Assembly: GCF_003334355.1 (NCBI RefSeq)
Contig: NZ_QOWP01000004.1
Length of the DNA: 64,000 nt
Reading direction: 5' to 3' (one strand)
Origin: Escherichia coli
GTDB taxonomy: Bacteria > Pseudomonadota > Gammaproteobacteria > Enterobacterales > Enterobacteriaceae
Position numbers: made by a program. Positions 28,994 to 31,900 of this stretch are shown here, in pieces (position 1 is the stretch's first letter; the number at the start of each line of letters is the position of its first letter).

Positions 28994-31900
28994 TACAAAA
29001 ATCTGCAAATTCAATAAATTGCAATTCACCTTGTAGGCCTGATAAGCGCAGCGCATCAGGCAATTTGGCGTTGCCGTCAGTCTCAGTTAATCAGGTTAGG
29101 ACGATTAACCCTGCAGCAGAGACAGAACCTGCTGCGGTACCTGGTTAGCTTTTGCCAGCACGGAGTTACCTGCCTGCTGAATAATCTGCGCTTTCGACAT
29201 GTTGGACACTTCGGTCGCATAGTCGGCGTCCTGAATACGGGACTGCGCTTCGGACAGGTTGGTAGTGGTGTTGTTCAGGTTGGTGACTGCGGAATCCAGA
29301 CGGTTCTGGATAGCACCCAAGGATGAACGGAACTTGTCGATCTGGCTGATTGCGTCATCCAGAGCGGCCAGCGGATCGGTGGTGGTTGCGGCTTTGGTTG
29401 CAGCGTCGGTAGTGAAATCACCATCCGCTTCTACATAGACCGCTTTACCTGAACCGTTGGTTACAGAGCCATCTTTCTGCAGATACAGTTTAGTGGTGTT
29501 ATCAGTAGTCAGTGTACCGTCAGTGTTGGTGTAAGAATCTTTGTTGCCAGAAGTCGCAACATCATATGCCTGAACACTCCCATCAGTACCTACAGAGATA
29601 TAACCAGCTGTGTCTGCTGTACCAACAGTGAAACCAGTCGTTTTGCTTGCAGATTGCAGAGCAGCTGAACTAATTACAGCGCCTGTAACAGCAATCGTAC
29701 CTTCAGTACCATTGCTTGAACCATTCAGTACAATCGAAGTGTTATCAGCTGTAGTAATTGTGGATTTAACAGCCGCTGCACCATTATTGTTGTTCAGAGC
29801 TAAACCACTCAGAGTCGCTTCCGCGAGTGTTCCAACACCGTTATTACCACCATTCTGAGTTAAGTTACCAGTTGTATCAATGTAAAGCTTAGAGCCATCC
29901 TTAGCAGTGAGTTTGCCATCACTGGACAGCACGACGTCTTGTGTAGTACCACCAATTTCAACACTGAATGTTGCAGTGTCGCCCGCTTTCGGAGTCAGGT
30001 AAGACTGCAGCTCAGCTGTCGTAGCAGTCGTGTCATAAGTAAATGTATTATTATCTTTGTTAAGTTTATAGGCATTGGAAGTGGCTCCTGCAGCAAAGCC
30101 ATTTTTCACGCCTGTGGCTGTAATAGTCGTACCATCAGCGAGGCTAGACAGTACATCTGCGGCTGTAGTTTTAGTCAGCCCAGCACTTACTGTGTAAGCA
30201 ATGGCACCTGTAGAATCTGCTGCCCCAGGGGTACCAATTGCAGCAGCAGCCAAATCAGCTTTAGTCGCCGCAGTATTCGCCACAGAACCAGAACCATTCA
30301 CGTTAAAACCAGTCAGTTTCAACGTAGAAGAGTCAATCTTCTTCAGGTCGATAGTGATGGTCTGGCCATCATTCGCGCCAACCTGAATTTTCATCGAACC
30401 GTCTTTTGCCAGTACGTTCACGCCGTTGAACTGAGTCTGACCAGATACGCGGTCAATTTCGTCCAAACGGGATTTGATTTCGTCCTGGATAGAGTCCAGA
30501 TCAGACTGGGAGTTGGTACCGGTGGTCGCCTGAACGGTCAGTTCACGCACACGCTGTAAGTTGTTGTTGATTTCGGACAGCGCGCCTTCAGTGGTCTGTG
30601 CAACAGAAATACCGTCATTGGCGTTACGTGCAGCCTGAGTCAGGCCTTTAATGTTAGAAGTAAAACGGTTAGCAATCGCCTGACCCGCTGCGTCATCCTT
30701 CGCGCTGTTAATACGCAAGCCAGAAGACAGACGCTCGATAGAACTCGACAGCGCAGACTGGTTCTTGTTGATATTATTTTGAGTGATCAGCGAGAGGCTG
30801 TTGGTATTAATGACTTGTGCCATGATTCGTTATCCTATATTGCAAGTCGTTGATTACGTATTGGGTTTCCACCCGTCGGCTCAATCGCCGTCAACCCTGT
30901 TATCGTCTGTCGTAAAACAACCTTTAGAATTTTTTTCACAAACAGCCATTTTTTGTTAGTCACCGAAATACTCTTTTCTCTGCCCCTTATTCCCGCTATT
31001 AAAAAAAACAATTAAACGTAAACTTTGCGCAATTCAGGCCGATAACCCCGGTATTCGTTTTACGTGTCGAAAGATAAAAGGAAATCGCATGGCAAGTATT
31101 TCATCGCTGGGAGTCGGGTCAGGTCTGGATTTAAGTTCAATCCTTGATAGCCTCACCGCCGCGCAAAAAGCGACGCTAACCCCTATTTCAAATCAGCAAT
31201 CGTCGTTTACCGCTAAACTTAGCGCCTACGGTACGCTGAAAAGCGCGCTGACGACTTTCCAGACCGCCAATACTGCATTGTCTAAAGCCGATCTTTTTTC
31301 CGCCACCAGCACTACCAGCAGCACCACCGCGTTCAGTGCCACCACCGCGGGTAACGCCATCGCCGGGAAATACACCATCAGTGTCACCCATCTGGCGCAG
31401 GCGCAAACCCTGACCACGCGCACCACCAGAGACGATACGAAAACGGCGATCGCCACCAGCGACAGTAAACTCACCATTCAACAAGGCGGCGACAAAGATC
31501 CGATTACCATTGATATCAGCGCGGCTAACTCGTCGTTAAGCGGGATCCGTGATGCCATCAACAATGCAAAAGCAGGCGTAAGCGCAAGCATCATTAACGT
31601 GGGTAACGGTGAATATCGTCTGTCAGTCACATCAAATGACACCGGCCTTGATAATGCGATGACACTCTCGGTCAGCGGTGATGATGCGCTACAAAGTTTT
31701 ATGGGCTATGACGCCAGTGCCAGCAGCAACGGTATGGAAGTCTCGGTCGCCGCCCAGAATGCGCAGCTGACGGTCAACAACGTCGCCATTGAGAACAGCA
31801 GCAACACCATCAGCGACGCGCTGGAAAACATCACCCTGAACCTGAACGATGTCACCACGGGCAACCAGACGCTAACCATCACTCAGGACACCTCCAAAGC

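What the first reader, a model, noticed from the sequence alone, without database searches (positions are those of the whole stretch)
30900..31045. Back-to-back sigma-28 promoters for fliC and fliDST
In the 265-bp divergent intergenic region I can read TAAAGGTT-N11-GACGATAA on the minus strand (driving fliC) and TAAACTTT-N11-GCCGATAA on the plus strand (driving fliD). Both are close to the FliA consensus TAAAGTTT-N11-GCCGATAA. An additional GCCGATAA-type -10 lies upstream of fliA (28811-28818), but its -35 is weak.
Basis: partly seen in the sequence, partly recalled or inferred. Interest (0 to 1): 0.25.

Follow-up and report, generated by a model that had tools for sequence, protein, structure and literature searches.

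The report
Known fliC/fliD flagellar sigma-28 promoters
The two motifs are the long-known divergent promoters through which the flagellar sigma factor FliA switches on the E. coli flagellin gene fliC and the filament-cap operon fliDST; they are real and strongly conserved, and nothing about them is new.

Summary
The window is E. coli chromosome (100% identical to strain PSS-12 over 28000-33400). TAAAGGTT-N11-GACGATAA lies at 30926-30900 (-) and TAAACTTT-N11-GCCGATAA at 31019-31045 (+). GCCGATAA also lies at 28818-28811 (-) upstream of fliA, with a weak -35 (TGCAGAAA).

The fliC and fliA 28-mers are identical to published FliA ChIP-seq sites in K-12. The fliD site differs from K-12 by one base: G31038 here gives the consensus -10, where K-12 has ACCGATAA.

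Across 16 other enterobacterial species all 32 box positions are invariant and none of the 22 spacer positions is (Fisher p = 5e-18).

Two caveats:
- fliDST is dual-controlled. An FlhDC box (about 30956-31000) sits between the promoters, and in K-12 the FlhDC/sigma-70 route dominates fliD expression.
- PfliC scores only 13.4 bits on an independent FliA matrix, a level that chance reaches in this window.

I could not retrieve mapped sigma-28 start sites from the papers held.

Verdict: observation confirmed, interpretation supported, already known, low interest.

The parts
30900..30907 (-). PfliC -10 octamer GACGATAA, followed by C at 30899
   Evidence: Identical to the K-12 FliA ChIP-seq motif. 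Invariant in 17 of 17 sequences.
30908..30918 (-). PfliC 11-nt spacer
   Evidence: Length is fixed at 11, and 0 of 11 positions are invariant across species.
30919..30926 (-). PfliC -35 octamer TAAAGGTT
   Evidence: Invariant in 17 of 17 sequences.
30930..30936 (-). A7 tract (T7 on the + strand), 4-10 nt upstream of the PfliC -35. Candidate UP element (inference).
   Evidence: 5 of 7 positions are invariant and 7 of 7 are at least 85% conserved across 17 sequences, while flanking DNA is not. It is retained in the 72%-identical E. coli haplotype B.
30824..30895 (-). fliC 5' untranslated leader. Start predicted at 30892-30895, not mapped here. Two small 5'-proximal hairpins at about 30863-30890.
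   Evidence: Conserved block TTGACGGCGATTGAGCCGACGGGTGGAAACCC. RNAalifold finds 8 pairs, only one of which covaries.
30956..31000 (+). Candidate FlhD4C2 box for the fliD class 2 promoter: arms around GAAATA (30965-30970) and TTATTC (30987-30992), plus CTATT (30996-31000)
   Evidence: Conserved islands appear in an otherwise variable stretch. The geometry matches the boxes upstream of fliA, flhB and fliL. FlhDC ChIP-qPCR at fliDST is published for K-12. GAAATA lies a fixed 54-55 nt from TAAACTTT in 38 of 38 loci. The exact extent of the box is inferred.
31010..31010 (+). The only published fliD start site I could retrieve (K-12 TSS profiling, count 3), 79 nt upstream of the ATG, with TATTAA at 30997-31002 as a possible sigma-70 -10
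   Evidence: Kim et al. 2012, supplementary file 2. It is upstream of the sigma-28 -35, so it is not the sigma-28 start. It does not fit class 2 geometry.
31019..31026 (+). PfliD -35 octamer TAAACTTT. The first six bases, TAAACT, are also a candidate sigma-70 -10 for the class 2 promoter (inference).
   Evidence: Invariant in all 38 loci that carry the motif.
31027..31037 (+). PfliD 11-nt spacer. The class 2 start site is predicted at 31030-31033.
   Evidence: 0 of 11 positions are invariant. The prediction comes from the AAATA-to-start distance of 64-67 nt at fliA, flhB and fliL.
31038..31045 (+). PfliD -10 octamer GCCGATAA, followed by C. K-12 has A at 31038.
   Evidence: The G allele is present in all other species. 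The exact 61-mer occurs in 2553 E. coli genomes, against 360 for the K-12 allele.
31046..31088 (+). fliD leader. Sigma-28 start predicted at 31051-31053, not mapped.
   Evidence: The distance from octamer to ATG is fixed at 41-43 nt in most species. At aer the start falls 6 bp after the octamer.
28811..28837 (-). fliA overlapping promoters: sigma-28 -35 TGCAGAAA (28837-28830), sigma-70 -10 GATAAT (28827-28822) inside the sigma-28 spacer, and sigma-28 -10 GCCGATAA (28818-28811)
   Evidence: FliA ChIP-seq score 91 on the identical 28-mer. The K-12 start site 30 nt upstream of the GTG corresponds to window 28815. The spacer and -10 of the 28-mer are identical in 6 other species, and the -35 varies only at its second and eighth bases.
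29105..30823 (-). fliC, flagellin, 572 aa
   Evidence: NCBIfam NF005953, 771 bits. RefSeq annotation.
31089..33295 (+). fliD-fliS-fliT operon
   Evidence: NCBIfam equivalogs for FliD, FliS and FliT. RefSeq annotation.
28066..28785 (-). fliA, the sigma-28 factor that reads these promoters
   Evidence: NCBIfam NF005413, 363.5 bits.

Best explanation
The 265-bp fliC-fliD intergenic region is a composite flagellar control region with two divergent, non-overlapping class 3 promoters read by RNA polymerase carrying FliA (sigma-28). PfliC (30926-30900, minus strand) is the sole promoter of flagellin. It has a sub-consensus core (TAAAGGTT / GACGATAA) and a conserved A-tract just upstream of the -35 that probably acts as an UP element. 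PfliD (31019-31045, plus strand) is near-consensus and serves fliDST. Between them lies an FlhD4C2 box that gives fliDST a second, sigma-70-dependent class 2 promoter. The cap protein can therefore be made before hook-basal-body completion, and again from the class 3 promoter once FlgM is exported and FliA is freed. Shown here: the sequence, its position, its conservation and its identity to published sites. Taken from the literature on K-12: FliA and FlhDC occupancy and dependence of expression. Inferred: the exact start sites, the UP-element role and the extent of the FlhDC box.
For: - The motifs are at the stated coordinates, and hits are enriched over chance, 6 against 0.46 expected.
- The flanking genes are FliC, FliD, FliS, FliT and FliA.
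- The region differs from K-12 MG1655 at only 3 of 265 positions.
- The published K-12 FliA ChIP-seq table lists these motifs, with scores of 110 for fliC, 43 for fliDST and 91 for fliA. Peak centres lie 29 nt (fliC) and 15 nt (fliD) downstream of the motif centres in the direction of each gene.
- In a fliA deletion, fliC falls from 2319 to 11, or by 78.8-fold with fliD down 9.9-fold in another study.
- FlhDC ChIP-qPCR is positive at fliDST, and fliD falls from 633 to 3 in flhD or flhC deletions.
- Overexpressing fliA in an flhD deletion restores fliD expression.
- fliC/fliD are listed among the eight well-characterised sigma-28 promoters of K-12.
- Phylogenetic footprint: all 32 box positions are invariant, against 0 of 22 spacer positions and 56 of 233 other positions, Fisher p = 5e-18.
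- The PfliD boxes are identical in 38 loci and in three E. coli haplotypes that are only 53-72% identical overall.
- In Enterobacter, the RNA-seq start of fliC agrees with the K-12 -35/-10 annotation.
Against: - I retrieved no mapped sigma-28 start site for either promoter.
- The one TSS data set I could read (Kim 2012, a poorly motile MG1655, counts of 2-3) puts a fliD start at 31010, upstream of the sigma-28 -35. It has no fliC start near PfliC.
- PfliC's matrix score of 13.4 bits is within chance range for a 64-kb window. A higher-scoring site inside yecU (22680-22707, 17.8 bits, identical in K-12) is not a ChIP-seq site. Sequence score alone therefore proves little.
- In K-12 RNA-seq, deleting fliA did not significantly change fliD.
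- All occupancy and expression data come from K-12, not from this strain.
Confidence: 0.95

Rival explanations
1. fliDST is driven mainly by the FlhDC-dependent sigma-70 class 2 promoter. The sigma-28 motif in front of fliD is bound by FliA holoenzyme but contributes little under ordinary growth, serving mainly for filament repair or swarming. This complements the main explanation rather than excluding it.
For: K-12 RNA-seq shows fliD at 633 in wild type, 356 (not significant) without fliA, and 3 without flhD or flhC. The authors conclude that most transcription of dual targets comes from the FlhDC-dependent promoters. A conserved FlhDC-type box lies at a rigidly fixed distance from the promoter core. 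Work in Salmonella assigns the class 3 promoter to regrowth after shearing.
Against: Another K-12 study found fliD down 9.9-fold in a fliA deletion. fliA overexpression alone restores fliD in an flhD deletion. K-12 carries a derived A at the first -10 base, whereas this strain and all other species have the consensus G, so the sigma-28 share may be larger here. The PfliD boxes are invariant over 38 loci, which argues for strong selection on the sigma-28 promoter.
Confidence: 0.55
2. The motifs are chance matches to a short AT-rich consensus in an AT-rich intergenic region and have no function.
For: PfliC scores 13.4 bits, a level reached about 3.6 times per shuffled window. An unbound site inside yecU scores higher.
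Against: All 32 box positions are invariant while the spacers vary, p = 5e-18. The distance to the start codons is fixed. The sequences match published ChIP-seq sites with very high occupancy, and fliC expression depends on FliA.
Confidence: 0.01
3. The invariance of the non-consensus PfliC -10 (GTTATCGTC on the plus strand) reflects a second reader of the same DNA, not only sigma-28. One example is the prophage-encoded RNA-guided repressor TldR, whose GTTAT adjacent motif and target overlap this -10 element.
For: [quoted passage not shown] GTTAT is present at 30898-30902.
Against: No tldR locus lies in this window. A repressor's target would be expected to escape rather than be conserved by the host. 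Some lineages carry different PfliC boxes (TAAAGTTC/GCCGATAC in E. coli haplotype C, TAAAGAAG/GGCGATAA in many Pantoea), so this variant is lineage-specific tuning rather than a universal constraint.
Confidence: 0.03

Closest known systems
E. coli K-12 fliC and fliDST class 3 (FliA/sigma-28) promoters, as mapped by ChIP-seq and RNA-seq in Fitzgerald, Bonocora and Wade 2014 (PMC4183435, corrected table PMC4203485)
   Same: The PfliC 28-mer TAAAGGTTGTTTTACGACAGACGATAAC is identical. The PfliD 28-mer is identical except for one base. The genes, orientation and 265-bp spacing are the same, with 3 differences in the whole intergenic region.
   Different: This strain has G at 31038, giving GCCGATAA, the consensus and the majority E. 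coli allele. K-12 has ACCGATAA. The fliC coding sequence is a different H type (572 aa against 498 aa in K-12).
[quoted passage not shown] 2010, as cited)
   Same: fliDST has dual FlhDC/sigma-70 and FliA control, and fliC is divergent and purely class 3.
   Different: Base-level equivalence is therefore untested.
Overlapping class 2/class 3 promoters of fliA and fliL in E. coli (Liu and Matsumura 1996, as cited)
   Same: An FlhDC box lies upstream with its AAATA core 64-67 nt from the class 2 start, and a sigma-28 promoter is superimposed on the sigma-70 core.
   Different: At fliA and fliL the sigma-70 -10 (GATAAT) lies inside the sigma-28 spacer, which is therefore conserved. At fliD the spacer is freely variable. 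The sigma-70 -10 must lie elsewhere, either in TAAACT (the sigma-28 -35 itself) or in TATTAA at 30997-31002.
Bacillus subtilis hag (flagellin) sigma-D promoter with an upstream UP element (Fredrick et al. 1995, recalled from memory)
   Same: A flagellin promoter read by a sigma-28-family factor, with an A-rich tract just upstream of the -35 that would raise output from a non-optimal core.
   Different: UP-element function of the A7 tract at 30930-30936 is inferred from conservation only and has not been tested in E. coli as far as I could find.

Membership tests
FliA (sigma-28) class 3 flagellar promoter | Bipartite motif resembling TAAAGTTT-N11-GCCGATAA with an 11-bp spacer | tested here: met
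   PfliC matches at 14 of 16 positions and PfliD at 15 of 16, both with N11. The consensus is as quoted.
FliA (sigma-28) class 3 flagellar promoter | Score on an independent FliA site matrix above what chance gives | tested here: inconclusive
   PfliD scores 20.6 bits, above the maximum of 100 shuffled windows. PfliC scores 13.4 bits, within chance range.
FliA (sigma-28) class 3 flagellar promoter | Correct orientation and short distance upstream of a late flagellar gene | tested here: met
   The PfliC octamer ends 76 nt before the fliC ATG and the PfliD octamer 43 nt before the fliD ATG. These distances are conserved across species.
FliA (sigma-28) class 3 flagellar promoter | Boxes conserved and spacer free to vary across related species | tested here: met
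   32 of 32 box positions are invariant and 0 of 22 spacer positions are, p = 5e-18.
FliA (sigma-28) class 3 flagellar promoter | In vivo occupancy by FliA holoenzyme | not testable with these tools
   Published for K-12 on the identical (fliC, fliA) or 1-nt-different (fliD) sequence, with ChIP-seq scores of 110, 91 and 43. Not measured in this strain.
FliA (sigma-28) class 3 flagellar promoter | Expression depends on fliA | not testable with these tools
   In published K-12 work, fliC falls from 2319 to 11, and by 78.8-fold in a second study. fliD changes from 633 to 356 (not significant) in one study and falls 9.9-fold in another.
FliA (sigma-28) class 3 flagellar promoter | Transcription start about 6-8 nt downstream of the -10 octamer | not tested
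   The primary TSS papers were not held. Kim 2012 lists only a fliD start at window 31010 and no PfliC start. An Enterobacter RNA-seq start is reported to agree with the annotation.
FlhD4C2-dependent class 2 promoter (for fliDST) | FlhDC box: two inverted arms of the AAYGS-N2-3-AAATARCG type about 10-12 bp apart, ending near -30 | tested here: inconclusive
   The GAAATA and TTATTC cores are 22 nt apart, followed by C(C/T)ATT. The arms match the degenerate consensus only in part. The geometry equals that at fliA, flhB and fliL only if the start is at 31030-31033, which is not the published 31010.
FlhD4C2-dependent class 2 promoter (for fliDST) | FlhDC occupancy and FlhDC-dependent expression | not testable with these tools
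   Published for K-12: ChIP-qPCR is positive at fliDST, and fliD falls from 633 to 3 in flhD or flhC deletions.

The most novel reading that the evidence does not exclude
The invariant TAAACT at 31019-31024 may serve twice: as the first six bases of the sigma-28 -35 of PfliD, and as the sigma-70 -10 of the FlhDC-activated class 2 promoter of fliDST. A single hexamer would then be read by two holoenzymes at two stages of flagellar assembly. The supporting evidence is as follows. The FlhDC-box core GAAATA sits exactly 54-55 nt upstream of TAAACTTT in 38 of 38 loci, although the 16-17 nt just before TAAACTTT are free to vary. In contrast, the distance from PfliC to PfliD ranges from 73 to 164 nt. 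At fliA and flhB the AAATA core lies 66-67 nt from the mapped class 2 start (64 at fliL, inferred). This puts the fliD class 2 start at 31030-31033 and its -10 on TAAACT. Unlike fliA and fliL, the sigma-28 spacer of PfliD holds no conserved sigma-70 -10. The idea may already be settled by the Salmonella start-site maps, which I could not read.
Probability: 0.4. Interest if true: 0.3.

Novelty: already known. Interest (0 to 1): 0.08.

Why it matters
These promoters set the timing and amount of flagellin and cap-protein synthesis, the most expensive step of flagellum assembly and the source of the H antigen. They are textbook elements, so finding them in another E. coli genome adds nothing new. 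The modest extras are three. This strain carries the consensus, majority G allele in the fliD -10, whereas the laboratory reference K-12 carries a minority A allele, so K-12 may understate the sigma-28 share of fliD expression. The strongest FliA promoter in the cell, PfliC, is a poor match to a FliA weight matrix, which is a caution for purely motif-based scans. The FlhDC box is rigidly phased with the PfliD core.

Tried and rejected
- Mapped start sites. Stafford 2005, Aldridge 2006, Thomason 2015, Wozniak 2010 and Yu 2006 are not held. The Cappable-seq start-site file is truncated. The SMRT-Cappable-seq and Cho 2014 supplements do not mention fliC or fliD. A literature search for the motif strings found only the Fitzgerald paper and its correction.
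- Kim 2012 TSS profiling gave a fliD start at window 31010 and a 'fliC' start 326 nt upstream, inside fliD, with counts of 2-3. I regard these as weak and not as sigma-28 starts. They neither confirm nor refute the finding.
- The sigma-70 consensus scan of 30780-31130 found nothing. This is expected for sigma-28 and activator-dependent promoters and does not locate the class 2 core.
- The fliC leader fold gave two small hairpins but only one covarying pair. That is too little to claim a conserved RNA structure.
- Rfam finds no known RNA family in the intergenic region.
- I considered and rejected the chance-match reading and the TldR-target reading as main explanations (see rivals).
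Full report
**What the window is.** A 5.4-kb stretch around the finding is 100% identical to the chromosome of E. coli strain PSS-12 and 99.5% identical to ATCC 8739. All 5,426 complete E. coli genomes searched have a match somewhere in this 5.4-kb stretch. RefSeq annotation of the matching locus gives the order tcyJ, fliZ, fliA, flagellin, fliD, fliS, fliT, amyA. NCBIfam models independently identify the ORFs:
- 29105-30823 (-) is FliC/FljB flagellin (771 bits).
- 31089-32495 (+) is FliD (680 bits).
- 32520-32930 is FliS and 32930-33295 is FliT.
- 28066-28785 (-) is FliA (363 bits).

The gap between the divergent fliC and fliD start codons is 30824-31088, which is 265 bp as stated.

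**Checking the observation.** Reading the sequence and searching the consensus with mismatches confirm every coordinate.
- Minus strand: TAAAGGTT (30926-30919), 11 nt, GACGATAA (30907-30900).
- Plus strand: TAAACTTT (31019-31026), 11 nt, GCCGATAA (31038-31045).
- Upstream of fliA: GCCGATAA at 28818-28811 (minus strand). The octamer at the -35 position is TGCAGAAA, 3 of 8 matches.

The consensus with up to three mismatches hits six times in the window against 0.46 expected, and no shuffle reached six.

I built a weight matrix from the 45 published FliA ChIP-seq motifs that lie outside this window (table read) and scanned both strands.

| Site | Score (bits) |
|---|---|
| Ptar | 26.0 |
| PmotA | 22.1 |
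| PfliD | 20.6 |
| yecU-internal site (22680-22707) | 17.8 |
| PfliA | 16.2 |
| PfliC | 13.4 (rank 11) |
| PfliL | 13.1 |

The best hit in 100 Markov-shuffled windows averaged 14.7 bits and reached 19.9 at most, and about 3.6 chance hits exceed 12 bits per window. PfliD therefore stands out on sequence alone and PfliC does not. Its A at the second -10 position and GG in the -35 are penalised.

The site at 22680-22707 is inside yecU, is identical in K-12 and is absent from the ChIP-seq list. This shows that the matrix gives false positives at this level.

**Published evidence on the same sequence.** The intergenic region differs from K-12 MG1655 at only three positions: 30939, 30962 and 31038. 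The FliA ChIP-seq table of Fitzgerald et al. 2014, in its corrected version, lists these motifs:

| Target | 28-mer in K-12 | ChIP score |
|---|---|---|
| fliC | TAAAGGTTGTTTTACGACAGACGATAAC | 110 (highest in the genome) |
| fliDST | TAAACTTTGCGCAATTCAGACCGATAAC | 43 |
| fliA | TGCAGAAACGGATAATCATGCCGATAAC | 91 |

- Converted to window coordinates, the ChIP peak centres lie 29 nt (fliC) and 15 nt (fliD) downstream of the motif centres, in the direction of each gene. This is what holoenzyme at an open complex should give.
- fliC RNA falls from 2319 to 11 without fliA. A second study reports fliC down 78.8-fold and fliD down 9.9-fold.
- Hollands et al. 2009 count fliC/fliD among the eight well-characterised sigma-28 promoters. 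They give the consensus TAAAGTTT-n11-GCCGATAA and found no CRP binding to the fliC/fliD fragment. At aer the start falls 6 bp after the octamer.

**Comparative test.** A scan of one genome per species with FliD returned 41 loci.
- In every locus where fliD faces a flagellin gene, the best plus-strand hit was TAAACTTT-N11-GCCGATAAC, with both boxes identical and the octamer ending 41-43 nt before the ATG in most species.
- The best minus-strand hit was TAAAGGTT-N11-GACGATAAC, 75-80 nt before the flagellin ATG, in Kluyvera, Pluralibacter, Citrobacter, Enterobacter and some Erwinia and Pantoea.
- A second group, mostly Pantoea, has TAAAGAAG-N11-GGCGATAA 156-158 nt upstream.
- In a 17-sequence alignment (16 other species plus the window), all 32 box positions are invariant. 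None of the 22 spacer positions is, and 56 of 233 other intergenic positions are. Fisher p = 5e-18.

This is a clean footprint of two bipartite elements with a fixed spacer length and free spacer sequence.

**Variation within E. coli.** The intergenic region and the 5' part of fliD fall into at least three deep haplotypes, whereas fliS-fliT is at least 95% identical in 5,376 of 5,426 genomes.

| Haplotype | Example | Genomes | Identity to A |
|---|---|---|---|
| A | window, K-12 | 3,188 | - |
| B | LR-03, NCTC11151 | about 1,326 | about 72% |
| C | E272 (only representative read) | up to about 865 | about 53% |

- The count for C is inferred: about 865 genomes carry fliS-fliT but match neither A nor B at the 5' end of fliD or in the intergenic region.
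- Haplotype B also carries a 19-bp deletion of 30939-30957.
- PfliD has the same boxes in all three haplotypes.
- PfliC has the same boxes in A and B. In C it is TAAAGTTC-N11-GCCGATAC.
- The G at 31038 is the common allele. The exact 61-mer occurs in 2,553 genomes, against 360 for the K-12 A allele, and all other species have G. K-12's ACCGATAA is therefore a derived minority variant.

**What lies between the promoters.** fliDST is a dual target.
- FlhD and FlhC occupy the fliDST promoter by ChIP-qPCR.
- fliD falls from 633 to 3 in flhD or flhC deletions but only to 356 (not significant) without fliA.
- fliA overexpression in an flhD deletion restores fliD expression.
- Salmonella work assigns the class 2 promoter to de novo assembly and the class 3 promoter to repair of sheared filaments.

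In the alignment, the otherwise variable centre contains conserved islands at GAAATA (30965-30970), TTATTC (30987-30992) and C(C/T)ATT (30996-31000). These fit the geometry of the degenerate FlhDC consensus quoted. The G of GAAATA lies 54-55 nt upstream of TAAACTTT in 38 of 38 loci, although the DNA just before TAAACTTT varies freely. By contrast, the distance between the two -35 elements ranges from 73 to 164 nt. PfliC is therefore an independent unit, while the FlhDC box and the PfliD core form one rigid unit.

**Where the class 2 start is (inference).**
- At fliA, the mapped K-12 start (window 28815) lies 66 nt downstream of the AAATA core.
- At flhB, a mapped start lies 67 nt downstream.
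- At fliL, the start inferred from GATAAT lies 64 nt downstream.

Applied to fliD, this predicts a start at 31030-31033 with TAAACT (31019-24) as the sigma-70 -10. That hexamer is also the first six bases of the sigma-28 -35. The only published fliD start I could read is at 31010 (count 3, poorly motile MG1655). It has TATTAA 7 nt upstream but does not fit the geometry.

At fliA the whole 28-mer, including the spacer that carries GATAAT, is nearly invariant in six other species, with changes only in the weak -35. The PfliD spacer is not conserved, so its sigma-70 -10 is not in the spacer. I rate the dual-use reading at about 0.4. It may already be answered by Salmonella start-site maps that I could not access.

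**PfliC details (inference).** The A7 tract at 30930-30936 on the fliC strand, 4-10 nt upstream of the -35, is conserved in all 17 sequences and in haplotype B. It sits where a proximal UP-element subsite would lie. From my own knowledge, the B. subtilis flagellin promoter needs such an element, and class 3 promoters in E. coli fire in an affinity-dependent order with fliD before fliC (Kalir et al. 2001). A weak core plus an UP element would give late but very strong firing.

The fliC leader begins with a highly conserved block that can form two small hairpins, but only one pair covaries.

**The fliA element.** [quoted passage not shown] It is bound by FliA in vivo with a ChIP score of 91.

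**What remains untested.** The primary papers are not in the held library and the accessible supplements lack the data. The predicted starts are 30892-30895 (minus strand) and 31051-31053 (plus strand).

**Verdict.** This is a known, well-characterised control region. Novelty: already known. Interest: low.

Noticed in passing
window 493-520 (-), and 510-587 (+): A perfect sigma-28 consensus, TAAAGTTTCCCCCCTCCTTGCCGATAAC (26.0 bits). It is identical to the K-12 tar-tap-cheRBYZ promoter motif (ChIP score 57). The Rfam family C0465 sRNA (111.6 bits) overlaps it on the opposite strand.
   Followed up: partly
window 5079-5106 (-): TAAACTTTCCCAGAATCCTGCCGATATT (22.1 bits). It is identical to the K-12 motAB-cheAW promoter inside flhC, which also gives rise to the MotR sRNA according to the literature read.
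   Followed up: partly
window 8311-8338 (+): TGAAATTGCACCAGATCGAGCCGATAAT inside otsA. It is identical to a weak intragenic FliA ChIP-seq site in K-12 (score 2) that shows no expression change.
   Followed up: partly
window 22680-22707 (+): A sigma-28-like site, TAACGTATTTTATAGCACTGCCGATATC, scoring 17.8 bits, higher than PfliC. It lies inside yecU just upstream of yecF, is identical in K-12, and is absent from the published list of 52 FliA ChIP-seq sites. It is either a matrix false positive or a conditionally used site.
   Followed up: partly
window 46130-46157 (+): The fliL overlapping class 2/class 3 promoter, TCAAGACGCAGGATAATTAGCCGATAAG (13.1 bits), with GATAAT in the sigma-28 spacer and an FlhDC-type box upstream (AGATA core at 46089-46093).
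   Followed up: partly
window 31038; L002 (K-12) 4822: K-12 carries A where this strain, all other species examined and most E. coli carry G, at the first base of the fliD sigma-28 -10. The exact 61-mer occurs in 2,553 genomes for G and 360 for A. The reference strain may therefore understate FliA dependence of fliDST.
   Followed up: yes
window 30824-31500; L044, L045, L049: E. coli has at least three deep haplotypes of the fliC-fliD intergenic region together with the 5' part of fliD: about 3,188 genomes (A), about 1,326 (B) and up to about 865 (C). They are 72% and about 53% identical to this one, while fliS-fliT is at least 95% identical almost species-wide. This looks like replacement of the flagellin-cap cassette together with its promoters. 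Haplotype C, of which I read one representative (E272), has a different PfliC (TAAAGTTC-N11-GCCGATAC).
   Followed up: partly
window 30898-30902 (+) and adjacent 30903-30920: The motif GTTAT overlapping the PfliC -10 is the target-adjacent motif reported for prophage-encoded RNA-guided TldR repressors of host fliC. I did not check whether this genome carries such a prophage. None is in the window.
   Followed up: no
window 30863-30890 (-): The 5' end of the fliC leader is almost invariant across genera and can form two short hairpins (CGGC/GCCG and GGGU/ACCC). Only one pair covaries, so a structural role is unproven.
   Followed up: partly
window 31010 (+): K-12 TSS profiling (Kim 2012) reports a weak fliD start 79 nt upstream of the ATG, 7 nt after TATTAA. 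It fits neither the sigma-28 promoter nor the class 2 geometry inferred from fliA and flhB.
   Followed up: partly
window 29105-30823 (-): fliC encodes a 572-aa flagellin, against 498 aa for the H48 type in K-12. This strain therefore has a different H antigen, although the promoter region is nearly identical.
   Followed up: no
window 28907-29104 (-): The fliC-fliA intergenic region contains REP-like palindromes and corresponds to the fliC 3' UTR, which yields the FliX sRNA annotated in K-12 (L002 2913-3107). No Rfam family matched it.
   Followed up: no
L003, L007, L041: Public assemblies labelled Collinsella sp. MAG (L003, 3.9-kb contig) and Pasteurellaceae (L041, 375 bp) match E. coli FliD at 100% amino-acid identity, and L003 also has identical promoter 28-mers and the same 265-bp intergenic length. 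'Chryseobacterium sp. 18061' (L007, 799-kb contig) carries an enterobacterial fliC-fliD locus much like that of Citrobacter sp. 18056. These are probably contamination or mislabelling.
   Followed up: no
window 51791-51877 (-), 60280-60369 (+), 18814-19113 (-): Rfam finds DsrA, RseX and three tRNAs at gathering threshold, as expected for this part of the E. coli chromosome.
   Followed up: no
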